Positions 1 to 26,213 of a stretch of 29,991 nt of DNA are shown here, one piece after another. The DNA is from Psammoneis japonica (lineage: Eukaryota). The notes under the pieces were generated by a model, which was not told the origin of the DNA, searched no databases, and was given only the letters and a program-made list of their open reading frames with translations. The position numbers and the translations under genes are program-made. The first letter of the stretch is position 1, and each line of letters begins with the position of its first letter. Location of the stretch: the NCBI GenBank assembly GCA_008632985.1, contig QPGO01000181.1:124001-153991 (forward strand), written 5' to 3'.

Positions 1-267
1 GAACAGGATTTAGGTGCGCGTGAAATGTCGCGCGCTATTTAGTTCACCGTGCACAGTTTTGTGTGCTCTTTAGTTCCGCGCGCACGCGCGCGATGTAGTT
101 TGCTTTCGAGCCACAAGGCTCACAAGAATAACAACAGCAGCCCGATTATACCGACTTACACGTCTTTCGGCTCCTGTGACGGTCTCTGAGCGGAGACTCA
201 TCTGCCATTTAGACAGCAGTAAGGAGTTGTTGTTTGAATTCTTGCCATTTGCCTTCAATTTCTGTCA
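1..267 (+). repeat. 5' LTR of Copia copy 1 (truncated by window edge)
   Basis: Ungapped match to 4493-4759; ends TTTCTGTCA. Confidence 0.95.
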
Positions 268-282
268 GATTAACAGTCTTGC
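268..282 (+). promoter_or_regulatory. Putative primer-binding site, complementary to a tRNA-Asn(GUU)-like anticodon arm
   Basis: GATTAACAGTCTTGC directly abuts the LTR; its reverse complement GCAAGACTGTTAATC contains a CTGTTAA anticodon loop. Identical in copy 2 (26199-26213, minus strand). No TGG (anti-CCA) start. Confidence 0.55.
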
Positions 283-1088
283 TCATTGTCAACCCATTGA
301 GCAACCGCCATCGTCGTCGTTGATTTACCGACGACGCTATTTCAATTCTGCGTGGACCTCCGTATATATTCTACGTGTACATCGGCAAGTCTACGCGCAT
401 TCAATACCAGGCATCGGCAGGAATTTAACGTCACCGTCAAGTCTCCTTAACGCTGTATATCTGGATTGATTATACTACCTTTTATCGCTGAAGACATACA
501 TTCAACGGTTATATCCAAGTCTATCCTTGATCCTCATCCCTTCATATACCCATTCAACGGTTAACGGTCAAGAACCCTACATATTCAAAGATCTTCGTCG
601 CTGAAGACATATATATATCTTCACGGCCGAGAACTTGAACCCACTCTTTGGACTACGGCTTTGCTACCACTCTACAAGCACACCGAGTCTATTGTACCTG
701 ATCTACCCCGGACTACTGGTGCTCTACAGTTCTACTAGGTCCACAAGGACGACTGTGAGAGCAAGTGGCCGTGATTGCAGCCTACGTTGGGGCGAGGGTG
801 TTTTCCCGCGTTTGTTCGTTTGTCCACAGCGCCTAACGCCTACGTCAACTGGCCAGCCTGATCGGGAAATCCAACCGATATAAAATAAGAACGGTTCGGG
901 GGTCTTGTCCACCTCCAGTCAGCTCACCTGCAGGGGTTTACAACCCGCTACTCCGCTCGTAAGCAACCCAAAGCGCCACTGGCTGCGGGTTTGGACGTGC
1001 CGGCACAACTCTACGGACCGGATGGGAAGTTTAGCACTTAACAACGAACGGGACAGCACACCCCGGCGACTTCTGATTTTAAGATAGT

Positions 1089-1145
1089 TCAAGATTTCAA
1101 GTCAAGTCCATTTCAAGTCAAGTCCATTCCCACTCAAGTTTCAAG
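1089..1145 (+). repeat. Cluster of 7 TCAAG pentamers just upstream of gag
   Basis: TCAAG at 1089, 1097, 1102, 1113, 1118, 1134, 1141; similar CTTGA cluster at ~25221-25277 in copy 2. Confidence 0.8.
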
Positions 1146-1199
1146 TCTACCTCCGCGTCCTAACAAGAATCACTTGCCCTGACACCGCTTTTGTCCACC

Positions 1200-2720
1200 A
1201 TGGTTCTCACTCGTCAGCAACAAACCGATGGTTTCAAGCACGTTGTTGGAACCGTGCTTGCCCAAGGTGCTGGAAGCCCTCTTCGTTTGGCTTTGACCCA
1301 CGATGGCACGGACTCGCACCAAGAACTGTTCACGTTCATGCCTTCCCAAATCAACTCGCTTGAGTGCGACAACGGCACCAATGTGATCCCATTGCCCCGA
1401 GGTTGCAAGAACATGTTAGCAGCTCTAGTTAGCCTGTACATTGTCAAAGCACACAAGGGCCTTGATGTTGCCAATGACTGTTCGTTGTTCACGCATGATG
1501 AGTTCCTTGCCTGCCGCCTCAGTCCCGACTGCATGTCTTCTGTGTCCGTCAGCAGCTCACCTCTTGCACCTCCGCACGTCACCAACTCGACCAAGGCACA
1601 CGACCCAGTGCGAGAATTCAAGCGAGGCATCAAGCGTGACCCCACTGCTTTCACGGCTCTCAAATCTGACAAACAGTGGCACACTTGGCACACCTCACTT
1701 GTGGCACAAGCCCGTGCCCAAGAGGTCGAGTGCATTCTAGACTCATCGTACAAACCGACCAGCCCCGAAGACAAACTGCTCTTTGCTGAACAGCAAAAGC
1801 ACATGTTCGCCGTCTTCGAATGCATCCTTCTCACTGACAAGGGCAAATCTCTCATTTGTGAAAATGTGGGGTCTTCTGATGCCCAGACCGTCTGCCGCGC
1901 CTTGTCCGAGCATGCGCTCACCTCCACCCGTGCATCTATCGAGTCCTCCACCTTGCTCACGCACCTCACCACCACACGCCTTGGTGATGGCACTTGGAAA
2001 GGTCCAACCCACGGGTTCATCCTTCATTGGCAGGATCAGTTGCGCAAGTGCGAGGCACTCATCCCGGCCAGTGACCACTTCTCTGAAGGAAAGAAGTGCG
2101 TCATGCTCGAGAATGCCGCACATCCTGTTGAGGAACTCCGCGCCGTCAAGAACCAAGTTGATCAACATGGCACGCAGAGTGGCAAGAGCCTCACATGCGA
2201 TCAACATTGTGGCTTGCTCCTCTTTGCAGCGGCTCAATTCGACAGCATGTTTCAACCCAAGATGACACCTCGAGCTCCCGACCGTGCCACACAACGTCCA
2301 CTCCGAGGAACCATCCGATGATGTGTTCTGTGACATCGACAGTGACATTGACGTCCTTCAGGCTGACGCTGCCCACACCTGCAGTCCCAGCCTCACCGGC
2401 AACCAATGGAAACGTCTCCCTCCCGACCACCAGCGGATTTGGGATTTGTTGCCCAATTCCTCCAAGGCGATCATCCTTGAGCATTCTCGTCCGCCTCCTC
2501 GCAACCCACGAGCTGTCAACTGCCATGAGTCTGTTGCGGTCAACCTTCATGACCAACAACTTGGGAGTGACGGTGATGTCAACTTGTCCACCACGACTCT
2601 TGCTGACTCTGGTGATCCCGCTCCGAATGTGGATGCCCCCTCAGACAATCCCATTCTGGCGCATCTCACCAAGCGCAAGCCACCACCACCCGGTGATCTG
2701 CAATGCCTGTTGTCTCCTGC
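1200..2720 (+). pseudogene. Copia gag (frameshifted near 2285)
   Basis: ATG at 1200; FKRGIKRDP..F..LK, AQARAQ, LLTDKGK, FILHWQDQLR are motifs typical of diatom CoDi Gag; continues in ORF 2284-2925; near-identical to the copy 2 gag. Confidence 0.85.
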
Positions 2721-2767
2721 CCCAGCCCCCAAAGCCAGTCGACCGGGCCCATCCGCACCCGCCACCA

Positions 2768-4460
2768 CTGATCCTTCCATTCGAAACCTGCATCTTGATC
2801 CTCCTGATGGGGAGCCACCTGAACCCATCATCAAATCTCGCAATGATGACAACCCCGTCGATTCACCTGATGGGGAGATCAGGACACCCAAGATGCCAGT
2901 TTTCGATCCGCAAGACATCATCTGACGCACCTTCCTCATGCAGCCACAAGAGGACGGACAACGCCACAGAGCTCGCATCGTCAAGGCCGTCGAAGATCAC
3001 GACTGGAAAGTGAATGGCAACCCCGAGCTCACTAAGTTCGTCTGCTCTGTCAACAACGACGAATGCGAGGAAGTCCTGGCCTGCAACGACATCATGAATC
3101 ACATTGAGCAAGAAGACGAAGACACTGCTGTTTGGAAATTTCGATGCATTGTGTCACACAAAGGACCTCTGAAGCCTCATGACCCAACCTGGAAAGGCTC
3201 AAGCTGCAACATCATGCTTGAATGGGAAAGTGGGGAGATCACGTCCGAGCCTCTTGCCATCATCGCCAAGGACGACCCTGTCACCAAGGCCATCCATGCA
3301 CGAGAGAACGGACTTCTCGACACCGATGGCTGGAAGCAGTTCTGCATCATCGCGAGGCGCCAGAAGAAGCTGTTCCACATGGCCAACCAAGCCAAGCTTC
3401 GCTCCTTCCGCACTGCACCTCGCTGCAAGTGCGGACACGAAGTTCCCCGGAACTGCAAACACGCCATGTCCCTGGACGAACGCAACGGCAACCGCAAATG
3501 GGGAGACGCAACCAATCTCGAGATGGACCAACTCGAGATGGGTTCCAGTCCTAGGTGGGACTTTTTGTGACATTGGGCCCACAGAATTCTACGTGCGAGC
3601 TCCGTAGTAAAATTGTTAAGCAATGGATATGTGAATGATCGCCAACAGAAAAAGAGGCAATTTTGCGAACGTATCTCCTCCTCCACACTTGAAATACATT
3701 CTTTACAGCATGCCCGGGTACATTCTTTAGACATTAAAGAACACACCCAGCGCATGTTTATTGACACAAGCGCAGATAACAGAAAGCCTTTGGCTTCGCA
3801 AAACAGGCAGTGTGGAACAATTTTTTATAATGGAACACGTAGAAATGTACGTGCGAAACATGCGACGGATGATAAAAAATAATTATGTCACAGTTCAGTA
3901 GTACGAGGTCCCACCTAGAGCTGGAACACGTCTCGATGAATGTGAAGTCTTTCATGACTGCGGGCCCTCCGAGTCTTCCACTCCTCCTGCGGGACACAAG
4001 AAGATCCGAGTGCACCCAGTGTATGACGTGAAACACGACGGCCGCCACAAGGCACGACTCGTAGCCGATGGACACCTCACGGATGTGCCCATCGATGGTG
4101 TCTGCTCTGGAGCAGTCTCCGCAAGGACTTGTGTCGAGCAGATTATCGACCTGCGCATCACCCTGCGTCACCTCGGCATCCCGATCCATGACATTAGTTG
4201 CATGTTCGGTGACAACAAGTCAGTTGTGGACAGTGCCACCATCCTGCACTCCAAGTTACACAAGCGACACACTGCTCTGTCGTTCCATCGTGTGTGAGAG
4301 GCGATTGCCTCTGGTTGCCTTGAGTTCCAATTCATCGAAGGCTCCCGCAACCCTGCTGACATTCTTGGCAAGCATTGGGGTTGCTCCCAAATCTGGGACC
4401 TTCTCCGTCCCCTCATGTTTTGGAACTTCATTCCATCCGAAGTCGAATCTGTTTCTGTGA
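2768..4460 (+). pseudogene. Copia pol remnants: post-integrase region, RT N-terminus fused directly to RNase H; interrupted by a MITE
   Basis: WKFRCIVSHKGPL...EWESGEITSEPL; EVPRN..HAMSLDERNGNRKW; KARLVADGHLT...SGAVS joined in frame at ~4120 to ARTCVEQIIDLR...FGDNKSVV...LSFHRV...NPADILGKHW. No protease, integrase core or YVDD motif seen. Confidence 0.9.
3537..3932. mobile_element. 396-bp MITE / non-autonomous DNA transposon with 25-bp TIRs and TCGA target duplication
   Basis: TIRs 3537-3561 and 3908-3932 match at 21/25; TCGA at 3533-3536 and 3933-3936; removal restores the Copia reading EMDQLDE(C)EVF. Confidence 0.9.
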
Positions 4461-4470
4461 CTCCTCAAGC

Positions 4471-4481
4471 AAACTGGGGAG
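4471..4481 (+). promoter_or_regulatory. Polypurine tract of Copia copy 1
   Basis: AAACTGGGGAG immediately before the TG of the 3' LTR; same sequence at 21965-21975 (minus) in copy 2. Confidence 0.8.
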
Positions 4482-4759
4482 TGACAGGATTTGAACAGGA
4501 TTCAGGTGCGCGCAAAATGTCGCGTGCTATTTAGTTCACCGCACACAGTTTTGTGTGCTCTTTAGTTCCGCGCGCACGCACGCGATGCAGTTTGCTTTCG
4601 AGCCACAAGGCTCACAAGAACAACAACAGCAGCCCGATCATGCCGACTTGCACGTCTTTCAGCTCCTGTGACGGTCTCTGAGTGGAGACTCATCTGCTGT
4701 TTAGACAGCAGCAAGGAGTCATTGTTTGAATTCTTGCCATTTGCCTTCAATTTCTGTCA
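4482..4759 (+). repeat. 3' LTR of Copia copy 1 (278 bp)
   Basis: TGACAG...CTGTCA; matches 1-267 and, inverted, 21689-21964 and 26214-26489. Confidence 0.95.
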
Positions 4760-5440
4760 CAATTGCACAGACTTGACTGGCCCTCAGTCTACAATCTGAG
4801 CACCACCTGCACAGCAACACCACAAACTGTCCCGATCGGCACCGAATCTGAACACACTTTTGTCCTGCATCATCCAGAGTGAACACAAACTGTTTTTCAT
4901 CTTGCACCAAGCACCTGACACCACTTGCACTGAATGGAATCTTGTTCAAGTTAATCTTGAATGTGCTGTGGCTGAACACCCTAATGCCTTCTCAGATGGC
5001 AAGGCATGCATTGAATTCTTCACGCAACATCCACACGATGTGCAGTTCAATGCTGCAAATCAGCGTTTTTGGAAATGACATCACAAACTCAAAGGACGAT
5101 TCATTCTCCACAACAATTTCCATCTGCTCACCATCTCCAAATGAGCACAGTTATGCCAGTGAAAAAAGTCTTGTCGTTTTCTCTCAATGGGTTCACTTTA
5201 ATCACCCGGACATGTGTCATCATGGACCCTTCAACTTTGCCACGATCAACAGCAGGCAGACACCTGATCAAATGTCGGCTAAAGAATGGAACATTCTGTC
5301 AGCACTGTCTCAATGACATGAGAACGAACCCCCAGCAAACAGCTGTCATGCCTCTCTTTTTCACATCACATGAATGCACACAGTTTCACACTGTCCACCG
5401 AGACCCATCTGTAGAATCTCAAACATCTGCTCTCCTCAGT
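4760..5440 (+). pseudogene. Decayed retrotransposon pol C-terminal fragment (probably diatom Ty3/Gypsy post-integrase tail)
   Basis: KLFFI...EWNLVQV...DG...EFF..HP.D..FNAANQRFW and HGPFNFATINSRQT.D resemble, from memory, pol tails of diatom LTR elements; contains stops/frameshifts; TpA-depleted. Confidence 0.5.
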
Positions 5441-5499
5441 CATGAGCACATGCACAATCATTGGATGCTGAGCTGTCACAAGCTGTCACTTGAATGAGT

Positions 5500-7290
5500 T
5501 GCTCACCAAAAGATTGGCCCCCCCATCTCAAAAGATTGCCCAAAATGGGCACCCCCAAAATTTTCTTCTTGGCATTCACACCCCTCAGGTTTTTGCAACA
5601 ATGCTTTTTCTCCTGGCCCATCATAATCTCTCTCTCTGTCCCCATGATGTTCTGTCTGCTTTTCATTTGGATGTTGCAACAATGTGGCTTTTGCCATCTT
5701 CTCTGGGTGGCTTAAAAGCGGAGCTCATCCAAGCTGATGTCAGCAACTTCCATTCCAGAAAACCATTAGCCATTGGCACATAAATTGCCAATCACCAACA
5801 GTTTTCCCTCTTTCCTCACCACTTTTTCAGTTCACCATGGAGAGTGGCTCATAATCCATGCAGATGATCACTCGCTTTTTATGCCATTCCACTTTTAAGG
5901 TGTCACACAAAGACTCGCGTGCTGCACAGAGGATTCATGCAGGGCTGTGCAAATTAGACACCAGAGGTTGCACAGAAAAATGCAAAATCACCACACTCAT
6001 CCACAACCCAAAAGCAGTGGCAAAATTTCCATTCGTGGTGCGGTGAATCCCGCACTGGAAATTCTTGAAAAGATTTTCCCGGGACTCAACACGCACAACT
6101 TCAAGGAGCTGAACGACAATGATGTCTCTTTGCAAGACAAATGAACCACACATGCATGGAAAGATCATCAAGAGCAGATGTTGATTGCGATGGTCAAACT
6201 GCATCTCACACCTCAGTGTCCCAAGATGTCACAATTTAAAATCCAACGCCTTCATTTTGTGATTTGGCAGAAATCTGATGTGACATCTTCTGACATGATG
6301 GTGTGAGATGCAGTTTGACTCCCCAAACCTTCTTCCCCCACGCATGCTTGTGACACTTTGATGCCTCTTTCTTTGTGATGCTCAACATGTTGATAAAACA
6401 ATCACCGCTGAAAGTCTTTGCTCCACTCAGTCCACTCATCGCAGAATTAGCACTGCGGTCTGCCACCTGCGAGCAACAGCACACGAGTCTTTGTTTGGCT
6501 GTGGCACCCAGAAAATCCAGGGATTCAGTCCCGAGATTTCCATTTGTGACTGCTCTGTTTGCAGTGCCAACCCACTTTCCATGTGACATGGCACCACAAT
6601 GTTGTTTCATGTCAAGTTTTGAAAAGGTCTCAATGGGAAACGAACGGCAAAGGGTCTGGTCTACAAGAGATGCATCTGTCACAAGTGCACAGGTCTGAAT
6701 CCCGGGATTTTTATTTTTGAACATGTCAAAGAGATGTTGATGTTTTCTCATCGAAGTAAAAGCACCCATGTGAGGACTGAAATGTTTGCAATCAATGGCT
6801 GTGTGCTTTTAGAATAATTGGAGGGTCTGTGGTGTTGGAAAGGGTTGATCTGGAGAAATGTGTGGTGGGAGGGTTGCGCGGAGCGTGCTTGGGGCGGGAT
6901 GGAGAGAAAAGGGGTGGGCCAAAAGTGCGGACAGATGACGGTGGAGGAGAGGAGAAGTTGGCAAAACAGCAGGATCATGGCAAAGAAGAAGAAGAGCTTG
7001 GCATGCAGAGAGATGGTTGGAGAGAGCAAAGCCAAGGCTGAGGATTTGAGAGGCCCAGAGTTGAGGGGTTGTAGTGTGACAAGAGGAGCCGAAGCGGTCC
7101 AGTGAAAGTTGTTTCCCAGGCTGCATTGGAGTGCTGGACAAGGAGGTTTTGGATGGTGGGAGCAGTGAGTTGGTGAAAGTGGAGAAGGATGCTTGAGAGT
7201 TGGAAAGGGAGGATGGGCTTGTCCAGGGTGGTTTGGGAGGAAGGGGTGGGATGGAGGAGGATGTTGTGGTGGACGTGCCGAAGAAGAAAA
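5500..7290 (-). other. Unidentified decayed repeat/ORF remnant
   Basis: Strongly TpA- and CpG-poor like the neighbouring TEs; fragmentary ORFs (6236-6769) and a Pro/Ser-rich low-complexity segment 6800-7280; no recognisable domain. Confidence 0.3.
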
Positions 7291-7601
7291 CGTGGAAATG
7301 ATAAAAAAATGTATAATATTTATATTTATGCAACTACGTTTATGTGAAAAAAGCAATATCATCATGGATTTTCCGGGTTCGCGAAGATGATACCCTTCAA
7401 CAACGATGTTGACGTTGAGTTGTGGAGCGAGATCTATTGCATATAAGGTACTGTACACGGGGTAGGTGTCCCACTACTGTATTGCTAATTTTTTGGAAGT
7501 TTTGCATAGTTCATCATCGAGTTATTTTCCTTGCCCGGTCTCACGGTGATTTTCGGAGCATTCCCATAAGGCAGCTACCATACTTTCTTTCGCGAGAAGC
7601 A

Positions 7602-8360
7602 ATGAAGTTCAATATCTTTTTCCTTTCCTCTTTCGTCGCTGCTGTAAGAGGATTTGCACCGGTGTGTACTGATCATGCTAAGCCGGCGTCCGTGGGTGCC
7701 ACGAAAACCGACCTTGAAGCAATCGCCGAGAAGTGCAACCCAATAGTCAAGTTCTACGACCCACTCAACCTTGCTGATGCCAACTTTTGGGGTAAGGGAT
7801 CCGAGGCAACAATTGGATTTCTCCGTCAGTCAGAGATTAAGCACGGTCGCATCGCAATGTTTGCGTTTGTTGGTTATGTTGTTCAGTCAAACGTCCACTT
7901 TCCTTGGCCCCAGACCCTCGCCGGAGCCGCCCATCCTTCTACTGACTTGAGTCCAGAGGCGCAGTGGGATGCGGTCCCTCTGGGGGCCAAATGGCAGATA
8001 TTTGCAGTGATAGCCGCATTGGAGCTCTGGGATGAGTGCGGGGGTGGCACTCTTCCTCATTACATGAATGGGCGCCAGCCTGGCAAGTATCCGAGCTTTC
8101 AGCCGTTCCGAGACGCCGTCCATCCCGTTTTTGATTTGTATGATCCATTCGGTTTCAACTCGAAGATGACCGACGATGTCAAGGAGCGCCGTCTCATTGC
8201 GGAGATCAACAATGGACGCTTAGCCATGCTTGGAATCTTCGGGTTCTTGTGCGCGGATAAGGTCCCTGGATCGGTACCTCTTCTAAATGACGTCGCTATT
8301 CCTTACCCGGGCGATCCGATGGTTCCTTTTGAGGGACAGTTCTCATACTTTGGCAACTAA
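7602..8360 (+). CDS. Fucoxanthin-chlorophyll a/c light-harvesting protein (LHC; Lhcq/Lhcf16-like), 252 aa, intronless
   Basis: Signal peptide ending ...VRG-FAP (ASAFAP-type plastid signal); helix motifs EIKHGRIAM and EINNGRLAM; YDPLNL and YDPFG motifs. True start is ATG 7602, not 7422. Subfamily assignment is tentative. Confidence 0.95.
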   Translation: MKFNIFFLSSFVAAVRGFAPVCTDHAKPASVGATKTDLEAIAEKCNPIVKFYDPLNLADANFWGKGSEATIGFLRQSEIKHGRIAMFAFVGYVVQSNVHFPWPQTLAGAAHPSTDLSPEAQWDAVPLGAKWQIFAVIAALELWDECGGGTLPHYMNGRQPGKYPSFQPFRDAVHPVFDLYDPFGFNSKMTDDVKERRLIAEINNGRLAMLGIFGFLCADKVPGSVPLLNDVAIPYPGDPMVPFEGQFSYFGN

Positions 8361-12481: not shown

Positions 12482-13960
12482 TCACATGGAGAACAGTGTG
12501 ATCACGATGCGGTCCCGTAGGGTCCACTTGTGACACATCACATCAATTGGTTCCCCGCGGCGACTACGACGCCAGTGGGCATGTTCACAAATTTGGTCCT
12601 GCGTGGCCTTGCGATGCTGGCCAGAGTGTGCGCGAGACACGTGGGACCGAGCACCACGTCGGTGGCAATGCAGGGACCAGAGCTTATCAGGGATGGAGTT
12701 GCCCGGCAAACTGTTGAAGGCTCGGAGGAAAGGGTCGCCGGCACGGCATTGAGACTCCAGTGCAGGCCACAAATGCATCTTCCGGCAGTGTTCGGAGGAC
12801 CACTGAGAGCCATCCGAATGGGAAAACATGAGGGTCTGGCTGTGTGGCCAATCGTCCGAACCTAAGCCGTGCGACTGGTGTGTATGCCGGAACCACTTGC
12901 CAGGCTGGAAGCCTGCAAACGTGCGGTGAGACAAGACCACATCCGCCAGTAAATCGCGTCGTCCCTTCGTTTCCAACCCCAGGTTCAAGGTGAGAACACC
13001 ACAGCCCCGCGGCAAGTCCACGGAGAGGGCTTTGGAAGGGGGGATGACGGTCGCATCCTCAAAGGACCGTCCAAAGAGCTCACCGGAACGGAGCCATCCA
13101 AGCCAGAAGATGGTGCGCCGAAGCGCCGGAGAGGCAGAGGCACAGCAACGGCGGTCCAGGTCGTAATCGAGCCACACAACGTGCCGCTCGAGAAGGGCCA
13201 CGGAGGGTTTGGTCTCGTTTCCCAAATGAGCACCCATGCCAGTGGCAAACAATTGAGCACCAAGGTCGTCGGTGGTCCTGCACGGGATGTGCAGGAGCCG
13301 ATTTTTGTCCATGACAGCAGCACCGGGGCGTGCGATCATCATGTCCCATGCGAAAAACTGCGAAGCTGCGCTGCGCAATTGTCGCACCGTCCCAAAGGAG
13401 ACGGGCTCCCCTTTCTTCCCTGGGCGGAGGCCACACTGTTCCTGAGCCCACAGCAAGGTCACCTCGGGTCCATCAGGGGGCCGGGACAGTGGAGTCGTCT
13501 TCAAAATGGGGACTTGAAATGTGGACTCGAATTTGCGCAGAGCATTGAGTTTTTGTTGGCACTGGGCGTGTGTCCCAGATGACCAGGCGTGAGCCACATC
13601 AAGGACCCACATCTGTTCCAGCGCCATGAGCCACCAATCTCCAGACAACGTGAGTTCTCGATCCAAAACGCTCCAGACTGTACACTTCTCGGAAATGAAA
13701 TGTGCCCATTGCCAGATCTTGGAGGGCAACTTGAGTCCACCGGCATGCTTCCGTGGTGTTGTAAATGGTGGCCCAGCCTTGAAGCACCCAGGGTGGTGGC
13801 ACACCCCACACGGTGAACATTGTGCACCGGAACTGAACAAAAAGCCGGTCCCTGCAAAAGAACACGTCACCAACGGGTCACGAGTGGAGGCTCCGCGGTG
13901 GCAGCCCGCGCAGTGTGTCAGCCTGTTTCTCATGCCACAGAACCGTTCCTGCTGGGGCAT
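12482..13960 (-). pseudogene. Tyrosine recombinase of the YR element, with an N-terminal Cys/His-rich finger; putative catalytic Tyr replaced by Cys
   Basis: LGWLRSGELF (Arg I), ETKG, SLHCHRRGA (HxxR), HAHW, and DVM-C at the expected Tyr position (12533-12535); overlaps the pol 3' end in another frame. Confidence 0.85.
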
Positions 13961-16900
13961 GTGGCTCCACCCTGTGAGTTGAAACAGATGGCAAGGTGCG
14001 ACGGTGAGGGCCAAGATGCAGGACAACAATGGGGATTGGCAAACTCGGTGGATGCACGAGGGGCGTCCACGGGTCTTGGGGAAATGTCGTCGGCAGCTCT
14101 TGGATGCACCGCGACAGCCCATGCCAGAAGGCAGGAACAACCCGCGGTACAAAGAGCAGCGCGGACGTTGTGAGAGGGCACTCAGCACACGCCGTGAGGA
14201 GGAAAGTAAGCAGCTGTCGTGCAATTTCCGGAGGCGGGAACCACACAGCAAGTCGGTCGAACACATGCCGGGCTGTCCATGCAGCATTCCACTCCTGAAA
14301 ATGCCAAGAGTCGTGCCGGAGGGTGCTAGCAAACTCACTTGCCAAGGTAGGGTCAGGGATCAAGGGTTCAAAAATCGCCGCATTGAGCTGGCTCTGGTCC
14401 TCGAGTTCATGCAGGACACTGGCCCAAACCCCGCGGCTCAACCCATCCATCATCTGCCGGATCATGACAACCCCCGGCACATGCACCACTTGAAGGCTGC
14501 AGCCCAACTCAAGCTCAATGATCCGAATTTGCTCAATCAGAGCGTGCAGCCCCGGCGATGATGAAGTGCCGGATGCCGCCACCCAGTGCGTCACAAGGTT
14601 GTCGGTGAAGTAGAAAACAGTCACGCCCTGGACGTCCCAAGATGGCAACGTATGCAGGTGTGTGAGGGTCAGGAGGAGAGTCTTCAGCTCCTTCCAGTTG
14701 GACGAGAAATGGTGCACTACAGGGCTCCATTGACTCATCCACATCCGCAGGGACTGGTCCCTGGGCCCCAGTGTCCCCCCAGCCCCGGTGCCGCTTCCGT
14801 CACCCCATGTCGGGAGCAGGGTCGCAGAGCGCACCGAATGGGCAGTCCGCCCCTGACCACTGCGCAAGCACGCTTCCCACCAGCTCAGGTCTCGGAGTAC
14901 GTCTGGAGTCAGTCGGGCCCTCGTACAGTGCGGATCGGCCCCAGTTCCTGATCCCGGGGGATGCACCAACGAGTGAAGCCTCCGCAGGTGAGTGTGCCCC
15001 AGTCAGAGTGGAGTGGCATCCGACAGGGATTCCAAGGTCCCAGAGAGCACCGACAGGGCGAGTCGAGAATGTTCCCAAGTCGGTCCGAGAGATGGGACGT
15101 GCTGCATCACAGCCAACCCCCACTCTTGTTTATCCCTCAGAATCACCAACGTGGGGATCCCCGTTGTGTCGAACAGGAATCTGCAGCACTTCGCCACTTG
15201 GGATGGCGGGTGACATTTCAGAGGATGGCACAAAAGTCCAACATCCATTGCCACATCAAAGAAGAAGCTAAGAGCCTCGCAGGCGCTCTCGTGCGTCGGT
15301 CCATGAATCGCGAAGTCGTCCACAAAGACCCATGTCTTGATTCCCGGGAGGCCGTCCCGTCGCATCAGGACCAGACCATGTCCCAACTTCGGATCGTAGG
15401 TCTCGGTGCACGACAGCTCGGTCCACCAACTGTTGACCCGGGGAGCATCACCAAAGAGCCGGGACGCGCTCTCTCTGAGCTTCCTCACAAAGGCATTCCC
15501 ATGCCGTCCACCTAGGGCCGGGCAATTCCCGCCCCCCACAGGCAGACCTAGCCAATCCAGTAATTCCTGGCTCAACGGATGCATCAACCCGAGCCACGGT
15601 CTGTCGTTTGGGTGCATGGTGAACTGATGGAAAAACTTAGAAGCATCGACCACTGCTGTGTAGCCGCCTTGGCACATTTCATCCAGAATGTGCGTGACCC
15701 GGGGAAGGAATGCTGGATCATTCCCCACCACTTCATTTTGGCCACCACTTCGCATGTCGGCAATCACTCTCCATTCACCCGGTTGCCCCGGTTTGGGGAC
15801 GCAGAACAAAGGCGTTGTCGCCAGAACCGCTGAAGGATCAGGCAACTCATCCACGAATTGCGTGGCGATCTGGAGCTGCTCTTCATCCATTGGCGAGTTC
15901 GGCGTCATCTTGGACTCCGGTGGTTGTAGGAAGTTCATGCGGCTCCCCTCTCGCAAATCGTCCCAATGTTCGGGGGGGAATTCCCACCACAACACCTGCA
16001 AGTGGTGTAGATCGGGACCCACATCATCGTAGTTGTTTCTGTGTCTCTCCAGGGCAACCATCCCTTGACTGATCATGTCTTCGCATCTCTCACGCGGGCA
16101 CCATTCCACCGCACAGAGTAGGTTCTCCAGTCGCTGCAGGTGCCAAACCCCGCCCTCGGAGAGATCCGGCGGTGTCCACTTGAATTCACCATGATCCGCA
16201 TCATCCGACCCATTCCCCGATTCCTCGGGTCGAGCTGAGATGGGTTCGCTAGGTTTTGCAAGCCGGAGGGTGGGCCATCGTTCCGATTCCGGCTCCAACG
16301 TGAAGCTCCTTCCCACATGCTCCCAGTGGAACACGCTTGTGGTCGATCCAGCATCTGTGTGGGCCTCAGGGATGTGCCAGTCCTTGGGAACTCCCAGTCC
16401 ACGCCCAAGCTCCTCCCGAGTGAGACGTCGAACTCGCTTGGGGGTACGAATCCAGGCTCCCGCCTTTACAGGCATGGGCTCTGTCGCCGCTTCATGGATC
16501 CGGGCCCCGCGTGGGATCTCACCTTTGACTCGTCGGACGAGACCTTCGGGCGTGAGTAGGTTGCTCATAGCCCGGGGTCGGGTGCCTCTGTGCAGCGCAT
16601 CCCAAGTCCAGCGAGTCGCACACGGCTTAGCTACTCGCGCGACTAGGAGTCGGCTCTGGTCCATTGCTCCACCCACTTCGGCCGCCGCTACTCGCCGGAA
16701 CCGAGATTCATATCCCAGTCTGGCCCAGCGTGTGCGGGCGGCTTTTCCTGTGGGTCCGTTTTCCCAGGTGATCGCATGTGCTTGCCAGCTTTCTAAGACT
16801 GCCTTCGGGTGAGAGCCTGGGGAGGTAGCGTCCACTAGTTCTTCCCAACGTTCAGAACAAGGTAGTTTCCGTGGTGCACGGATGAACCCCCGCTCCACCA

Positions 16901-17276
16901 CCAGCAAGTCTACTGGATTCTGCGCCAAGAGGCACGTCTTGACCCTGGGGCCAGTGACTGTCACCACCGCATCTGACTTGGGTCCAACGGGATCTCCTTG
17001 CCGGCGGACACACAGCTTTTGCTCCAGCCTTGGCCACGCGACCTTCATGGTCTCAGCACCACACTTGAAGGCACCGTATGACTTGATCCACGCAAGTACT
17101 TTCCTGGGTGGAGGCGCACTCCGCATCTCCATCCCCTCTACAGTCGGGTCCTCAACATCCTGGACACTCTCGGTGTGGACACCTTGAGGTCCGGTTCCAT
17201 CGTCGCTTGTTTCCAGGGCTGACGGATAGTGGATCCAGTCGCGCCCGGCTTCCAGCAATCTCTCCTCCAGTGCCAT
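13878..17276 (-). pseudogene. Pol of the YR element: C5-MTase-like domain - RT - RNase H - Dam-like MT remnant (one in-frame TGA at 15003)
   Basis: RT: PLFCVPKPGQPGEWRVIADM, VDASKFFHQF, LPVG, FVDD. RNase H: GDGSG, SNWKEL, FTDN, HVPG, DGLSR. MT: VWFPPP...LLFVP. ORFs 15003-17366 and 13878-14969 share a frame. Confidence 0.9.
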
Positions 17277-19977: not shown

Positions 19978-20256
19978 AAAAAGAAATTTTACACTGTCCA
20001 GCGTGTCGGTTCGTTGGTGCTCCAAATTGTGGGCTGTTGTGAACTCTTGGCGGCAAAGCCAATCTTCGTGTCTTTTTCCAAATCCTGGTGTTGAATCAAC
20101 GTGGGGCCACTTGATTGTTCGCATTTGTAGCACTTCCATTGAGGTCGAGTGCCCGAGATCACTTTTTAATCCAATGCCCAGTCCGGATCTGTCAAAGAAC
20201 ATCCGTTCTCAATTCGTCGTCTGTCCGAGAACCCGTCAATTAGGGTGAGTGATGAG
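19978..20256 (-). repeat. Repeat A1 (5' terminus) of the YR element
   Basis: Direct repeat of A2; similarity stops after ...gtgatgag at 20256/12217. Confidence 0.9.
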
Positions 20257-20600
20257 TTTTCTTGTGCGTGCAAATTGCACTGGAAAAACCCCCAAACGCA
20301 CTGGCGATCAGACCGCCTTCAACGATCTCACTTCCAAAGACGCCCCCCAAGTAGCCTCTATCCCGCGTGATGAGTTCGTGCACGTGTGGGCACGAACGCA
20401 GAAGTTCGTGCCCCTGGGGGCACGAACGACGCCCTGGTAGAATTCGTGCCGAGTTTTACGTGAAAGGACACATCGTCTCCCATTGACAACATCAAAACAA
20501 GCGACACGCCTCTTGTGAAACAAGATGATGTTCCTGACTACTGCCATTGCTCTGGTGGTCGAAAAGATAATTTCATCACTGCTACAATTATGTGTGACTG

Positions 20601-21688: not shown

Positions 21689-21964
21689 TGACAGAAATTG
21701 AAGGCAAACGGCAAGAATTCAAACAACAACTCCTTGCTGCTGTCTAAATGGCAGATGAGTCTCCGCTCAGAGACCGTTGCAGGAGCCGAAAGATGTGTAA
21801 GTCGGCACAATCGGGCTACTGTCATTGTTCTTGTGAGCCTTGTGGCTCGAAAGCAAACTGCATCGCGCGCGAATGCATGGAACTAAAGCACACAAAACTG
21901 TGCGCGGTAAACTAAACAGCACGCGACATTTCACGCACACCTAAATCCTGTTCAAATCCTGTCA
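21689..21964 (-). repeat. 3' LTR of Copia copy 2 (276 bp)
   Basis: Reverse complement of the copy 1 LTR; preceded by the PPT on the minus strand. Confidence 0.95.
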
Positions 21965-22498
21965 CTCCCCAGTTTGCTTGAAGAGTCACAGAAACAGATT
22001 CGACTTTGGATTGACTAAAGAACCTTGGAGTCAAAGCACCAAAACATGAGGAGACAAGAAAGGATCAAGATCCTGGAGCAACGCTGCATTCTCCAAGTGG
22101 GTCATCTTGAGATGAGCTGCGTCTCCCCAATTGTAGATGCCGTTGTGCTTTTCAAAGCTCAAGGCACACTTGGGATCTTGTGGGATTCCACATCCGCACT
22201 TGCAATGGAAGGAGCAAAGCTTGGTCTGGTTGACAATGTTGAACGGCGGGGCAACATCGCAGGACAATGCAAACAAGTTGACATCGCCTTCACTTCCTGA
22301 GCGAAGGTCGTAAAGACTGATGGCCGTCTGTTGGTTCTTGGAACGGTCGCCACACTGGGTTGCTGCTAGAAAAACAGAGCAGTGCTCGTGCAGGGTGGCA
22401 TGGCGTTTGCACGACTCGGGGAACAGAGCAAGCATGAGTTCAAAGGCACAAGCGGTGGTCTTGTGTTCCACCAATCCGATCGCAAGCTCAGCTGCATC

Positions 22499-23422
22499 TC
22501 CTGAGAGACTGATCCAATTGGAGAAACGAGTCTCAAGGTGCAAGCCTTCAGGGATCGGATTGGAGCAAGACATCTTGTGGTGCAAGGCTGCAGATGTCTG
22601 ATTGGGGCAACCAGTCCCGTGCTGCAAGACTTCTGGGATCCAAAAGGACTTGCCAGTCTTGTGACACGAGCCTTCGGGGATCCAATCAGGAGGCCAAGTC
22701 TTGAGGTGTGAGACTTGGAGGATCCAATCAGGAGGCCGAGTCTCATGGCGCAAGACTTGAGGGATCCAATCCGAAGGCCCAGTCTCGAGGCACGAGACTT
22801 GAGGCATCCAATCAGGAGGCCTGGTCTCGAGGTACGAGACTTGGGGCATCCAATCAGGAGGCCTGGTCTCAAGGCACGAGACTTGGGGCATCCGATCAGG
22901 AGGCCCAGTCTCGATGTACGAGACTTGAGGCATCCGATCAGGAGGCCCAGTCTCGAGGTACGAGACTTGGGGGATCCAACCAGGAGGCCCAGTCTCGAGG
23001 CATGAGACGTGGAGAGTCCAGTTGGGAGGCCTGGTCTCAAGGCACGAGACTTGGGGCATCCGATCAGGAGGCCCAGTCTCGATGTACGAGACTTGAGGCA
23101 TCCGATCAGGAGGCCTAGTCTCGAGGTACGAGACTTGGGGGATCCGACCAGGAGGCCCAGTCTCGAGGCACGAGACTTGAGGCATCCAATCAGGGGGCCC
23201 AGTCTCGAGGTGCGAGACTTGGGACATCCAATCAGGAGACCTGGTCTCGAGGTACAAGACTTGGGGCATCCAATCAGGAGGCCCAGTCTCGAGGTACGAG
23301 ACTTGGGGCATCCAATCAGGAGGCCCAGTCTCAAGGTACGAGACTTGGGGCATCCAGTCAGGAGGCCTGGTCTTGAGGCACGAGACTTGGGGCATCCAAC
23401 CAGGAGGCCCAGTCTCGAGGCA
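22499..23422 (-). repeat. 42-bp minisatellite (~18 conserved + ~4 degenerate units) reading (Y/C/H)LETGPPDWMPQVS
   Basis: Unit gagacttggggcatccaatcaggaggcccagtctcgaggtac; two further units lie near 23575-23640. Confidence 0.95.
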
Positions 23423-23772
23423 CAATGCTTGGAGGATCCAAAGACAACGAAGCTGCTTGGATGTCCTGAACTCCCCATCTGATGAACCAGTTGAACTGTT
23501 GTGAACAGATTCAATGATGGGAAAAGGAGGCTCCCCATCAGGAGATGCGAGAAGCTATGAGACCAGGCCTCCTGTCAGGAGGCCTGGTCTCGAGGCACAA
23601 GACTTGGGGCATCCAACCAGGAGGCCCAGTCTCGAGGCACGATGCTTGGAGGATCCAAAGACAATGAAGCTGCTTGGATGTCCTGAACTCCCCATCTGAT
23701 AACCCAGTTGAACTGTTGTGAACAGATTCAATGATGGGAAAAGGAGGCTCCCCATCAGGAGATACGAGAAGC
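23357..23772. repeat. 199-bp direct duplication (23357-23555 / 23574-23772) with a fold-back palindrome at the junction
   Basis: 217-bp period; GAGACCAGGCCTCCT-gtc-AGGAGGCCTGGTCTC at 23559-23591. Confidence 0.9.
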
Positions 23773-23789
23773 AAGTTGTCATCTCCATC

Positions 23790-25166
23790 ACTTCCCAAAC
23801 GAAGGTCATGAAGGGTGACAGCGGTGGACACGTGGAGGTTGGCAGCACGTGGTTTGCGGGGAGGCAGACGAGAATGCTCAAGGATGATCGCCTTGGAGGA
23901 ATGGGGCAACAAATCCCAAATCCGTTGGTGGTCGGGGGGGAGACGTTTCCATTGGTCACCGGTGAGGCTGGGACCGCTGGTGTGGGCAGCGTTAGCCTGA
24001 AGGACGTCAATGTTGCTGTCGATGTCATAGAACACATCATCGGATGGTTCCTTGGAGCAGACGTGGTGTGCGCACATGGCATGTCGGGGAGCTCGAGGTG
24101 TCGTCTTGGGTTGAAACGCACTGTCGCATTGGGCCGCCGCAGAGAGGAGCAAGCCACAACATTGATCATGTGTGAGGCTCTTGCCACTCTGCGTGCGATG
24201 CTGATCAGCTTGGTTCTTGACGGCGCGGAGTTCCTCGACAGGATGTGCGGCATTCTCGAGCATGACGCGCTTCTGTCCTTCAGAGAAGTTGTCACTGGCC
24301 GGGATGAGTGCCTCGTACTTGCGCAACTGATCCTGCCAATGAAGGATGAACCCGTCGGTCAGACCTTTCCAAGCACCATCACCAAGACGTGCGGTGGCAA
24401 GGCACGTGAGCAAGGTGGAGGACTCGACAGATGCGCGGGTGGAGGCAAGCGCACACTCGGACAAGGCGCGGCAGACGGTCTGGGCATCAGAAGACCCCAC
24501 ATTTTCACGAATGAGAGCCTTGCCCTTGTCGGTGAGAAGGATGCGTTCGAAGACGGCGAACATGTGCTTTTGCTGTTCAGCAAAGAGCAGTTTGTCTTCG
24601 GGGCTGGTCGGTTTGTACGACGAGTCTAGAATGCACTCAACGTCTTGGGCACGGGCTTGTGCCACAAGTGAGGTGTGCCAAGTGTGCCACTGCTTGTCGG
24701 ATTTGAGAGCCGTGAAAGCGGTGGGGTCACGCTTGATGCCTCGCTTGAAGTCTCGCACTGGGTCGCGTGCCTTGGTCGGGTTGGTGACATGCGAAGGTGC
24801 GAGGGGCGAGCTGCCGACGGACACAGAAGACATGTGGTCGGGGCTGAGGCGGCAGGCAAGGAACTCCTCATGCGTGAACAACGAGGAGTCATTGGCAACG
24901 TCGAGGCCTTTGTGTGCTTTGACAATGTACAGACTAACTAGAGCTGCTAACATGTTCTTATAACCACGGGGCAAAGGGATCACATTAGTGCCGTTGTCGC
25001 ACTCAAGCCAGTCGATTTGGGACGGTATGAACGTGAACAGTTCTTGGCACGAGTCCGTGCCGTCATGGGTCAAAGCTAAACAAAGAGGGCTTCCAGCACC
25101 TTGGGCAAGCACGGTTCCAACAAAGTGCTCGAAACCATCGGTTTGTTGCTGACGAGTGAGAACCAT
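23790..25166 (-). pseudogene. Copia gag of copy 2 (frame open but hypermutated)
   Basis: ATG at 25166; colinear with 1200-2580; many expected Tyr positions read Cys/His. Confidence 0.85.
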
Positions 25167-25733
25167 GACAGACAAAAGCGATGTCAGGACAAGCGATTCT
25201 TGTTGGGAGGCGAAGGTAGACTTGAAACTTGGGTGAGAACAGACTTGACTTGAAACAGACTTGACTTGAAATCTTGAACTACCTTAAAATCAGAAGTCGC
25301 CGGGCTGTGCTATCCCGTTCATTGTCAAGTGCTAAACTTCCTATCCGGTCCGTAGAGTTGTGCCGGCACGTCCGAACCTGCAGCTGGTGGCGCTTTGGGT
25401 TGCTTGCGAGCGGAGTAGCGGGTTGTAAACCCCTGCAGGTAAGCTGACTAGAGGTGGACAAGACCCCCGAACCGTTCTTATTTTACATCGGTTGGATTTC
25501 CCGATCAGGCTGGCCAGTTGACGTAGGCGTCAGGCACTGTGGACAAATGAACAAACGCGGGAAAACACCCTCGCCCCAACGTAGGCTGCAATCACGGCTA
25601 CTTGCTCTCACAGTCGTCCTTGTGGACCTAGCAGAACTGCAGGGCACCAGTAGTCTGGGGTAGATCAGGTGCAATAGACTCGGCGTGCTTGTAGAGTGGC
25701 AGCAAAGCCGCAGTCCAAAAAAGTGGGTTCAAG

Positions 25734-25957
25734 TCCTTGGCCGTGAAGATGTGTGTGTGTGTATGTCTTCAGCGACGAAGATTTTTGAACATGTGGGGTT
25801 CTTGACCGTTAACCGTTGAATGGGCATATGAAGGGATGAGGATCAATCCTTGGCCATGAAGATGTGTGCATGTGTGTCTTCAGCGACGAAGATCCTTGAA
25901 CATGCAGGGTTCTTTACCGTTAACCGTTGAATGAGTGTTTCAAGGGATGAGGATCAA
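25734..25957. repeat. ~112-bp tandem duplication in the 5' UTR of Copia copy 2
   Basis: Units 25734-25846 and 25847-25957; only one full unit in copy 1 (~526-632). Confidence 0.85.
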
Positions 25958-26213
25958 GGATGGACTTGGACATGACCGTTGAATGTATGTCTTCAGTGAT
26001 AAAAGGTGGCACAATCAATCCAGACATCCAGCGGTGAGGAGACTTGACGGTGACGTTAACTTCCTGCCGATGCCTGGTGTTGAATGCGCGTAGACTTGCC
26101 CGATGTACGTAGAACACACACGGAGGTCCACGCAGAATTGAGAGCGTCATCGGTAAATCAACGACGACGATGGCGGTTGCTCAATGGGTTGACAATGAGC
26201 AAGACTGTTAATC

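What the first reader, a model, noticed from the sequence alone, without database searches (positions are those of the whole stretch)
1..4759. The two LTRs of one insertion differ only at YpR dinucleotides, showing post-insertion, double-stranded, directional mutation
By-eye alignment of 1-267 vs 4493-4759 gives 19 differences at 15 sites, with no indels or transversions: 7 TA vs CA/TG, 4 CG vs TG/CA and 4 reciprocal TG vs CA. At all 11 polarisable sites the 5' LTR keeps TA/CG and the 3' LTR has lost it. LTRs are identical at integration, and both TA>TG and TA>CA occur on one strand, which argues against RNA (ADAR) editing or RT error and for DNA-level mutation. The ~7% divergence would badly inflate LTR-based age estimates. 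The A1/A2 repeats of the YR element show the same spectrum.
Basis: seen in the sequence. Interest (0 to 1): 0.85.

Follow-up and report, generated by a model that had tools for sequence, protein, structure and literature searches.

The report
TpA hypermutation in diatom retrotransposons
The two end-repeats of one jumping gene in a diatom differ only by TA-to-TG/CA and CG-to-TG/CA changes, the mark of a DNA-level hypermutation of repeats reported so far in one unrelated alga, and it makes such elements look much older than they are.

Summary
Window 1-267 and 4493-4759 differ at 19 positions, all transitions, at 15 YpR sites: 7 TA vs CA/TG, 4 CG vs TG/CA, 4 TG vs CA.

Direction was tested against outgroups. 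At Tyr-consensus columns of homologues from other diatoms, the window's copies carry Cys/His (TGY/CAY). In E1, 19 of 24 columns are Cys/His and 2 remain Tyr. In the unrelated YR-type element, 11 of 19 are Cys/His. Arg columns change mostly by CGN>TGN/CAN. No His, Gln, Trp or Cys column became Arg. The neighbouring host light-harvesting gene keeps 7/7 Tyr and 7/7 Arg.

So TpA and CpG both decay to TpG/CpA, on both strands, in repeats only. TpA observed/expected is 0-0.3 in repeats and about 0.55 in the gene island. This is the reverse of fungal RIP.

The TpA part matches the TpA-only A:T>G:C hypermutation reported in 2026 for integrated viral DNA in Bigelowiella natans. The CpG part is ordinary methyl-CpG decay. 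My searches found no diatom report.

The enzyme is inferred, not shown. The E1 target-site duplication and genome-wide LTR pairs could not be checked.

The parts
1..267 (+). E1 5' LTR; the window start cuts off its first 11 nt. It keeps TA 11 and CG 20.
268..1199 (+). E1 leader/5' UTR with near-normal TpA. There are 68 TA in 1-1161, and TA o/e is 0.95 for 1-1000.
1200..2321 (+). E1 gag remnant. At the 11 Tyr-consensus columns it reads C4, H3, Y1, F2, gap 1.
2857..3531 (+). E1 pol remnant, homologous to Ty1/copia polyproteins of relatives; the integrase and RT core are deleted. No TA occurs between 1938 and 3032.
3532..3931 (+). 400-bp insertion with about 20-nt terminal inverted repeats. It is absent from other family copies and has normal TpA (24 TA).
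   Evidence: (joint 3531>3932 in 6 contigs of X1 and 2 of X4)
3932..4481 (+). E1 pol remnants (RT N-terminal and RNase H-side pieces) and the polypurine tract. Tyr columns read Cys/His, and one Arg column is a TGA stop at 4295.
4482..4759 (+). E1 3' LTR, the more mutated partner: TA 4 and CG 16 over the shared 267 columns.
4760..7200 (.). Old repeat-derived flank, strongly depleted in both TpA (o/e 0.04-0.31) and CpG (0-0.62). A sharp boundary to the gene island lies near 7200.
7419..8360 (+). Host fucoxanthin-chlorophyll a/c (light-harvesting) gene, used as the unaffected control: Tyr 7/7 and Arg 7/7 kept.
13863..17156 (-). pol of the RVT_1-type ('YR') retroelement. At 19 Tyr-consensus columns it reads Y6, H8, C3, W2, and one Arg column is a TGA stop.
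19978..20259 (-). Terminal repeats of the YR-type element, with partners at 10618-10734 and 12052-12220. 9 of 10 differences lie in YpR sites.
21689..26489 (-). E2, a second inverted copy of the same family. Its LTRs are 26214-26489 (5') and 21689-21964 (3'). The LTR pair has 22 differences, 19 of them in 17 YpR sites. No clean target-site duplication was found.

Best explanation
E1 is a non-autonomous Ty1/copia-type LTR retrotransposon in a diatom nuclear genome. After integration, its DNA was hit by two context-specific transition processes confined to repeat (probably silenced) DNA. Other repeats in the window were hit in the same way.

(1) A TpA-specific A:T>G:C hypermutation turns TpA into TpG or CpA. 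It acts on either strand and stops once the TpA is gone. It can run to saturation.

(2) Ordinary decay of methylated CpG to TpG/CpA.

Both end in TG/CA, so the two LTRs differ only at YpR sites. Where both LTRs were hit, TG-vs-CA 'swaps' result.

Shown here: context, direction, strand symmetry, restriction to repeats, and inheritance of mutated states through later retrotransposition.

Inferred: process 1 is enzymatic deamination of adenine at 5'-TA-3' in DNA (inosine pairs with C), guided by chromatin or repeat status, as proposed for Bigelowiella natans. Also inferred: the CpG part comes from 5mC deamination. The hypermutation removes Tyr codons, TAA/TAG stops and TA-rich signals. It creates no stop codons, so dead copies keep long open frames.
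For: Pattern: 19/19 differences are YpR-preserving transitions. The E2 LTR pair has 19 of 22 differences in YpR sites and the YR-element repeats have 9 of 10.

Direction, Tyr columns: E1 gag plus pol over 24 Tyr-consensus columns reads C12, H7, Y2, F2, W1. E2 gag over 11 columns reads C7, H1, Y2, F1. The YR-type pol over 19 columns reads H8, C3, W2, Y6, while no reference among 60 exceeds 2 C+H. Of 38 gag homologues, 37 have 0-3 C+H.

Direction, Arg columns: YR pol keeps 29/35, and 5 of the 6 changes are H, H, Q, W or a TGA stop. E1 pol keeps 17/21, with Q, H and TGA among the changes. No His/Gln/Trp/Cys consensus column became Arg, so TG/CA is a sink.

Three-state sites: TA/CA/TG/TA at LTR site 11. 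At 766-767, E2 has TA, E1 has TG and 93% of family depth has CA.

Strand symmetry: TG 23 vs CA 14; pooled Cys 14 vs His 12, p=0.85.

Locality: TA o/e is 0.0-0.3 in repeats and 0.53-0.57 at 7-10 kb. There are 8 TA where about 110 are expected in 1201-3400. The host gene keeps Tyr 7/7.

Rates: in E2's 5' 1165 nt, 37/64 TA sites are lost against 11/75 CG sites.

Sister LTRs: both E1 LTRs carry CA at 83-84 (about 98% of family depth has TT) and a CT that about 76% of depth lacks. There are 0 non-YpR differences between them.

Precedent: TpA-only A>G/T>C hypermutation measured in mutation-accumulation lines of B. natans (10.64898/2026.01.13.699255; abstract, Results and Discussion read). Diatom transposons are CpG-methylated (PMC9998398, passages).
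Against: No enzyme, DNA inosine, methylation or chromatin data were seen for this organism. Adenine deamination cannot be told from a thymine-side route by sequence alone.

The E1 target-site duplication is outside the window. E2 has no clean one, so recombination between elements does occur here.

The runs that hold the window (X1-X4, one sample) may be its own source data. Only 4736-5400 was matched without differences, so the copy-specific letters of the 3' LTR have no independent support. The family is very abundant, so assembly or polishing mosaics are possible.

Much of the TpA loss inside E1 is shared with E2. That part predates E1's insertion, and only the LTR differences are strictly post-insertion.

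The reason the 5' kilobase of E1 is spared is not explained.

Only 3 of 46 related loci from metagenomes have TA o/e below 0.5, so the process is not general in hosts of this element lineage.
Confidence: 0.8

Rival explanations
1. The family-level hypermutation is real, but the E1 LTR differences did not arise in place. They would come from inter-element recombination or gene conversion, or from an assembly/polishing mosaic of a very abundant family, which imports variants at sites that are polymorphic between copies (mostly YpR sites).
For: The family is very abundant: 10,515 contig pieces were laid, with summed depth 3e4-3e5 against 35-120 in the flank. E2 lacks a clean target-site duplication. 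A 226-N gap shows the contig is scaffolded. The copy-specific letters of the 3' LTR were not independently confirmed.
Against: Both E1 LTRs keep two rare family variants: CA at 83-84 (about 2% of depth) and the extra CT at 66-67 (about 24%). These lie between changed sites at 50-51, 87 and 96, so a tract imported from a typical copy would have erased them. There are 0 non-YpR differences in the pair, against 5 between E1 and E2 5' LTRs. All 11 single-step changes sit on one LTR (p=0.001).
Confidence: 0.12
2. The same signature arises from the thymine side. An enzymatically modified thymine at TpA (for example a 5-hydroxymethyluracil or base-J-like mark of silent DNA) mispairs with G, giving T>C. 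There is no adenine deamination.
For: T>C on one strand is A>G on the other, so the counts fit equally well. The link to silent repeat domains would suit a chromatin mark. The mark itself is recalled knowledge, not tested here.
Against: No evidence for such a base in diatoms was seen here. The only experimental precedent favours a deaminase hypothesis, itself unproven.
Confidence: 0.15
3. RNA-level A-to-I editing (ADAR-like) of element transcripts, or reverse-transcriptase error, fixed by retrotransposition.
For: The 5'-U preference of ADARs fits TpA (recalled, and cited in the preprint). Mutated states are inherited by both LTRs of a copy at many sites.
Against: It would give A>G on the sense strand only and identical LTRs. 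Here T>C is as common on the sense strand and the two LTRs of one insertion differ. The YR-type element shows more His than Cys, while the Copia shows more Cys than His.
Confidence: 0.03
4. A RIP-like cytosine deamination (CpA>TpA and CpG>TpG). In that case the TA-rich 5' LTR would be the mutated partner.
For: Diatoms carry DNMT4 enzymes related to fungal RID (PMC9998398, passages). All the differences are transitions.
Against: Mutated regions lose TpA, down to 0 in 1 kb. Conserved Tyr columns read Cys/His, not the reverse. Three-state sites need a TA ancestor.
Confidence: 0.02
5. TpA poverty is native composition, or selection against UpA in the element's transcripts, rather than mutation pressure.
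For: TpA is under-represented in most genomes, about 0.55 in this window's gene island.
Against: Loss of conserved Tyr is deleterious to the element. Relatives have a median TA o/e of about 0.67, and only 3 of 46 fall below 0.5. The two LTRs of one insertion differ. Non-coding old repeats are hit as well.
Confidence: 0.02

Closest known systems
TpA-targeted hypermutation of integrated viral DNA in the chlorarachniophyte Bigelowiella natans (bioRxiv 10.64898/2026.01.13.699255, 2026)
   Same: Changes are almost only A>G/T>C, only at TpA, giving TpG/CpA on either strand. The process is confined to foreign DNA. It leaves clusters that are poor in TpA and rich in CpA+TpG. TpA-poor coding sequences there are enriched for reverse transcriptase and DDE domains.
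   Different: The host is a diatom (stramenopile), not a rhizarian. The targets are LTR and YR-type retroelements and old repeats, not giant-virus or virophage inserts. Depletion is far deeper (0 TA in about 1.1 kb, against Rho 0.45 for the viral region there). It is superimposed on CpG decay. It is inferred here from fixed differences, not measured in mutation-accumulation lines.
Repeat-induced point mutation (RIP) of fungi
   Same: Repeat-restricted, DNA-level, dinucleotide-specific transitions on both strands that inactivate transposons and inflate their apparent age.
   Different: The chemistry and direction are opposite. RIP is C>T, mainly CpA>TpA. It enriches TpA and creates stop codons. 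Here TpA is destroyed and stops are removed. Whether duplication is the trigger here is unknown.
Methyl-CpG deamination decay of silenced transposons
   Same: CpG>TpG/CpA changes at Arg codons and in the LTRs. CpG-poor relatives are common (CG o/e 0.02-1.11 in 46 loci). Diatom transposons are CpG-methylated.
   Different: It explains only the 4 CG sites and perhaps some of the swaps. It cannot explain the TpA loss. Relatives such as L022 show CpG loss without TpA loss.
ADAR or APOBEC hypermutation of retroelements
   Same: Deaminase-type, context-dependent transitions in mobile elements.
   Different: Those act on RNA or on single-stranded replication intermediates before integration. They give strand-asymmetric changes and identical LTRs, which is not what is seen.

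Membership tests
TpA-targeted A:T>G:C hypermutation (B. natans type) | Changes restricted to TpA, giving TpG or CpA | tested here: met
   7 of 15 LTR sites. 37/64 TA sites in E2's 5' region became TG (23) or CA (14). No TA>CG double change was seen.
TpA-targeted A:T>G:C hypermutation (B. natans type) | Direction is A:T to G:C (TpA is ancestral) | tested here: met
   Tyr-consensus columns read Cys/His in 19/24 (E1), 8/11 (E2) and 11/19 (YR element), against 0-3 in 37 of 38 gag references and at most 2 in 60 pol references.
TpA-targeted A:T>G:C hypermutation (B. natans type) | Confined to foreign or repeat DNA, sparing host genes, with TpA-poor and CpA+TpG-rich clusters | tested here: met
   TA o/e is 0-0.3 in repeats and 0.53-0.57 in the gene island. 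The boundary near 7200 is sharp. Spearman rho between TA and TG/CA o/e is -0.62. The host gene keeps Tyr 7/7.
TpA-targeted A:T>G:C hypermutation (B. natans type) | Very high de novo rate seen in real time, episodic between lines | not testable with these tools
   This needs mutation-accumulation lines or strain resequencing. Only fixed differences were seen here.
TpA-targeted A:T>G:C hypermutation (B. natans type) | Near absence of other change types in the target | tested here: not met
   CpG>TpG/CpA changes accompany it (4 of 15 LTR sites; 11/75 CG sites). They are read as a second, ordinary process.
Fungal RIP | C>T at CpA (or CpG) with TpA enrichment and new stop codons | tested here: not met
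   TpA is lost, not gained. TpA/ApT for the window is 536/1570 = 0.34. Tyr reads Cys/His.
Methyl-CpG decay | CpG>TpG/CpA with CpG as ancestor | tested here: met
   Arg columns changed to H, Q, W, C or a TGA stop. The LTR site at 50 reads TG/CA/TG/CG.
Methyl-CpG decay | Cytosine methylation of the affected DNA | not testable with these tools
   There are no methylation data for this organism. It is known for other diatoms (PMC9998398).
RNA editing or RT-error hypermutation | Sense-strand A>G only; LTRs identical after integration | tested here: not met
   TG 23 vs CA 14; Cys 14 vs His 12; the LTRs differ at 19 positions.
Ty1/copia LTR retrotransposon (diatom lineage) | LTRs with TG...CA ends, gag, and an RVT_2-type pol | tested here: met
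   LTR termini. gag has 38 homologues. The pol remnants match polyproteins of relatives that carry RVT_2 at E about 1e-26. E1 itself lacks the RT core and gave no Pfam hit.
Ty1/copia LTR retrotransposon (diatom lineage) | 5-bp target-site duplication | tested here: inconclusive
   E1's 5' flank is outside the window. E2's flanks do not match.

The most novel reading that the evidence does not exclude
Diatoms and chlorarachniophytes share a dedicated, chromatin- or repeat-guided DNA adenine-deamination defence, an 'inverse RIP'. It erases every TpA of an integrated retroelement or virus. Tyr codons, TATA-like and AATAAA-like signals are lost without any new stop codon. It is episodic and tract-wise, which would explain why one LTR is hit and its sister is spared. 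It is ancient within the SAR supergroup. A bolder form: one dual A/C deaminase makes both the TpA and the CpG changes, which fall together in the same tracts.
Probability: 0.3. Interest if true: 0.9.

Novelty: new member of a known kind. Interest (0 to 1): 0.7.

Why it matters
1. It would be a second, independent occurrence of TpA-specific DNA hypermutation, in a different major lineage and on a different class of invader (retrotransposons). That supports the idea that editing-type genome defence is widespread in microbial eukaryotes. It also gives a tractable group, diatoms with genetic tools, in which to find the enzyme.

2. It breaks LTR dating. E1's LTRs are 7.1% diverged yet have 0 differences outside YpR sites. 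Diatom transposon ages are currently computed from identity with one constant rate (10.1101/2025.10.24.684338, passages).

3. It removes TAA/TAG stops. Dead elements therefore keep long open frames on both strands (73 frames of 120 aa or more in 30 kb) that can be mis-annotated as genes.

4. Cys/His at Tyr positions, together with TpA o/e near 0, gives a simple screen for the process in other genomes.

Tried and rejected
- Whole genome: none is held. Genome-wide LTR pairs, the E1 target-site duplication and candidate deaminase genes could therefore not be examined.
- Earlier findings of this scan: three look-ups returned nothing.
- Sequencing runs: four runs of one sample, all contigs, and no RNA holder listed. 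Laying them showed family abundance and the kinds of change, but only 40 of 385 variant places were printed. No contig confirmed the copy-specific letters of the 3' LTR.
- Pfam on E1/E2 frames: no hit. Classification rests on relatives.
- The tyrosine recombinase of the 'YR element' was not verified. Only RVT_1 was found.
- E2 target-site duplication: not found.
- 42-bp tandem array in E2: the one TA of the unit is CA in 7 and TG in 2 units, but 34 other changes make it weak evidence.
- Transcription-strand bias: none. Cys 14 vs His 12, p=0.85, with opposite trends in the two families.
- Flank preference: TpA with A before it or T after it was hit more often (20/26 against 17/38, p=0.02). This is suggestive only.
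- LTR pairs in metagenome relatives: only four usable pairs with few differences (L018 2, L005 1, L014 0, L023 58 with 43 outside YpR). This control is small.
- Literature: seven searches, one more and a term search inside the preprint found no report of TpA hypermutation in diatoms. bioRxiv supplements are closed, so the preprint's tables could not be seen.

Full report
**What is in the window**

The window is nuclear DNA of a diatom. The frame at 7419-8360 is a chlorophyll a/c-binding protein (Pfam Chloroa_b-bind, E 2e-25). It is about 80% identical to light-harvesting proteins named from Seminavis, Odontella, Chaetoceros and Discostella.

Positions 1-4759 hold a Ty1/copia-type LTR retrotransposon, called E1 here. 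It has a gag remnant and pol remnants but lacks the integrase and the RT core. Its pieces align to polyproteins of relatives that carry RVT_2. E1 itself gave no Pfam hit. A second, inverted copy (E2) lies at 21689-26489. The LTR has TG...CA ends and starts 11 nt before the window, so the 3' LTR is 4482-4759.

**The observation**

1-267 and 4493-4759 align without gaps and differ at 19 of 267 positions, all transitions. The differences sit in 15 YpR dinucleotides:
- 7 TA vs CA/TG;
- 4 CG vs TG/CA;
- 4 TG vs CA.

The 5' LTR holds TA or CG at all 11 single-step sites. About 52% of LTR positions lie in a YpR dinucleotide, so 15 of 15 by chance is about 6e-5, before requiring transitions only.

The same pattern recurs elsewhere in the window:
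- E2 LTR pair: 22 differences, 19 of them in 17 YpR sites.
- Repeats of the RVT_1-type 'YR' element: 9 of 10 differences in YpR sites.

**Direction**

Three models were possible:
- C>T only (RIP-like, with TA derived);
- A>G only (with CG derived);

I polarised the changes with outgroup proteins.

*gag.* It has 38 homologues at 36-53% identity from other diatoms and metagenomes. At the 11 columns where at least half of them have Tyr:
- E1 reads C4, H3, Y1, F2, gap 1;
- E2 reads C7, H1, Y2, F1.

One example is a column with Tyr in 35 of 36 homologues: E1 has TGC and E2 has TAC. At two adjacent Tyr columns E1 reads C, H and E2 reads H, C. Of the 38 homologues, 37 carry 0-3 Cys/His at these columns.

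*E1 pol remnants.* Compared with ten polyproteins of relatives, 14 Tyr columns read C8, H4, W1, Y1. Asp (16/16), Trp (7/7) and His (12/13) are kept.

*YR-type element.* This is an unrelated family. Its pol (13863-17156, minus strand) against 60 homologues reads, at 19 Tyr columns, H8, C3, W2, Y6. No reference has more than 2 Cys/His.

*Arg columns* change in the CpG manner:
- YR pol keeps 29/35, and 5 of the 6 changes are H, H, Q, W or a TGA stop.
- E1 pol keeps 17/21, with Q, H and TGA among the changes.
- In gag, a column with Arg in 36 of 38 homologues is TGT in E1.

No His, Gln, Trp or Cys consensus column became Arg. TG/CA is therefore the end state of both processes.

*Within the four LTRs.* At 7 of the 11 single-step sites, at least one E2 LTR keeps the TA or CG seen in the E1 5' LTR. 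Two more sites show TA, CA and TG together, which single steps allow only from TA. Two sites are ambiguous.

*Control.* The host light-harvesting gene keeps 7/7 Tyr and 7/7 Arg columns.

**Where it acts**

TpA observed/expected over the whole window is 0.32, with CG 0.77, CA 1.40 and TG 1.32. The value is uneven along the window:

| Region | TA o/e or count |
|---|---|
| Gene island, 7-10 kb | 0.53-0.57 |
| Repeats | 0.0-0.3 |
| 6901-7200, then 7201-7500 | 0.06, then 0.81 (sharp step) |
| E1 1-1161 | 68 TA |
| E1 1162-3531 | 8 TA (about 110 expected in 1201-3400) |
| E1 1938-3032 | none |
| 400-bp insertion, 3532-3931 | 24 TA |
| E1 3932-4759 | 9 TA |

The 400-bp insertion is absent from other family copies.

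Most of the internal loss is shared with E2, so it predates E1's insertion. Mutated source copies kept transposing in trans. The LTR and leader, which must work in cis, stayed TA-rich in the lineage that was still moving. This last point is inference.

After insertion the damage is tract-like:
- E2's 5' 1165 nt lost 37 of 64 TA sites (23 to TG, 14 to CA) and 11 of 75 CG sites. E1 lost 8 and 2 at the corresponding sites.
- E1's 3' LTR took all 11 single-step changes (p=0.001).

TpA and CpG depletion co-vary over 57 windows (rho 0.46, p=3e-4). This fits common targeting of silent DNA. Relatives such as L022 show CpG loss without TpA loss, so they are two processes.

**Strand and context**

TA>TG and TA>CA are about equally common on one strand: 23 vs 14, and pooled Cys 14 vs His 12 with opposite trends in the two families. 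After one hit the site is no longer TpA on either strand, and no TA>CG double change was seen. This fits a strict need for T 5' of the target A. TpA flanked by A before it or T after it was hit more often (p=0.02), which is suggestive only.

**Are the two LTRs sisters?**

The target-site duplication cannot be checked, because the 5' flank is outside the window and no genome is held. Reads give indirect support.
- The family is very abundant in the one sample that holds the window (10,515 contig pieces laid).
- Both E1 LTRs carry CA at 83-84, where about 98% of family depth has TT.
- Both carry a CT that about 76% of depth lacks.
- They have no difference outside YpR sites, against 5 such differences between E1 and E2 5' LTRs.

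Caveats:
- The runs may be the window's own source data.
- Only 4736-5400 was matched without differences.
- E2 has no clean duplication.
- A mosaic from recombination or polishing therefore keeps about 0.12.

Relative to E1, the family shows A>G at 101 places, T>C at 113, C>T at 54 and G>A at 46, with 52 transversions of all kinds. This again shows a transition-dominated spectrum.

**Comparison with relatives**

Among 46 related loci from metagenomes, TA o/e is 0.27-0.94, with a median near 0.67 and 3 loci below 0.5. CG o/e ranges from 0.02 to 1.11. L001, the closest relative, repeats E1's layout: 0.67 in its first 500 nt and 0.04-0.20 further in. P0159 has 0 Tyr, 6 Cys and 3 His at the gag Tyr columns. 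The process therefore exists in at least a few other hosts or copies, but it is not general. The few LTR pairs in relatives show no YpR bias.

**What it is like**

The closest known case is a 2026 preprint on Bigelowiella natans (10.64898/2026.01.13.699255; abstract, Results and Discussion read). In mutation-accumulation lines, two integrated viral regions mutate about 1000 times faster than the rest of the genome. The changes are almost only A>G/T>C, and all fall at TpA. They occur in some lines only. The authors suggest a DNA adenine deaminase (an ADAT2-like candidate).

The diatom signature is the same in context, direction, strand symmetry and restriction to foreign DNA. It differs in four ways:
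- the host lineage;
- the targets (retroelements);
- the depth of depletion;
- the CpG decay that accompanies it.

The preprint does not mention diatoms or retrotransposons. My literature searches found no diatom report.

Fungal RIP is the functional analogue with opposite chemistry. Diatoms do carry RID-related DNMT4 enzymes, whose function is unknown (PMC9998398, passages).

**Mechanism**

Shown:
- DNA-level changes after integration;
- TpA-specific A:T>G:C, plus CpG>TpG/CpA;
- confinement to repeats;
- mutated states passed on through later retrotransposition.

Inferred:
- enzymatic adenine deamination at 5'-TA-3' guided by silent chromatin. A thymine-modification route cannot be excluded from sequence;
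- 5mC deamination for the CpG part.

**Consequences**

- Tyr codons, TAA/TAG stops and TA-rich signals are lost.
- Dead copies keep long open frames: 73 frames of 120 aa or more in the window.
- LTR ages are inflated: E1's LTRs are 7.1% diverged with no ordinary substitutions. Diatom studies date elements from identity with one constant rate.

**Verdict**

It is a new member, in a new lineage and on a new target class, of a kind of hypermutation that was described only very recently. The enzyme is unknown.

Noticed in passing
window 3532-3931: A 400-bp insertion with about 20-nt terminal inverted repeats sits inside E1's pol remnant. It is flanked by a repeated 5-nt stretch and is absent from other family copies (joint 3531>3932 in 6 contigs of X1 and 2 of X4). 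Its TpA content is normal (24 TA), so it either arrived after the hypermutation or is not targeted.
   Followed up: partly
window 22488-23543 (inside E2): An array of about 22 units of 42 bp replaces most of pol in E2. The unit's single TA is CA in 7 units and TG in 2.
   Followed up: partly
window 21679-21688 and 26490-26499: E2 has no matching 5-bp target-site duplication. This suggests recombination between elements or a rearranged flank.
   Followed up: partly
window 10392-10617: A run of 226 N (scaffold gap) abuts a terminal repeat of the YR-type element.
   Followed up: no
window, whole: There are 73 stop-to-stop frames of 120 aa or more on both strands in 30 kb. This is a by-product of losing TAA/TAG, and such frames could be called as genes.
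   Followed up: partly
window 29293-29991: An open-ended frame has an Exo_endo_phos domain (E 9e-9), probably a LINE-type element. It lies in TpA-poor DNA (o/e 0.06-0.28).
   Followed up: no
L001 (metagenome locus), 1-3516: The closest relative of E1 shows the same layout: TA o/e is 0.67 in the first 500 nt and 0.04-0.20 beyond. Its gag still keeps 8 of 11 Tyr columns.
   Followed up: partly
P0159 (281 aa, from a 33.9-kb contig): This distant gag homologue has 0 Tyr, 6 Cys and 3 His at the Tyr-consensus columns. It is a hypermutated copy elsewhere, and its DNA could not be fetched.
   Followed up: no
window 25752-25957: A 111-bp tandem duplication lies in E2's leader. Its two copies differ partly by TG/CA swaps.
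   Followed up: partly
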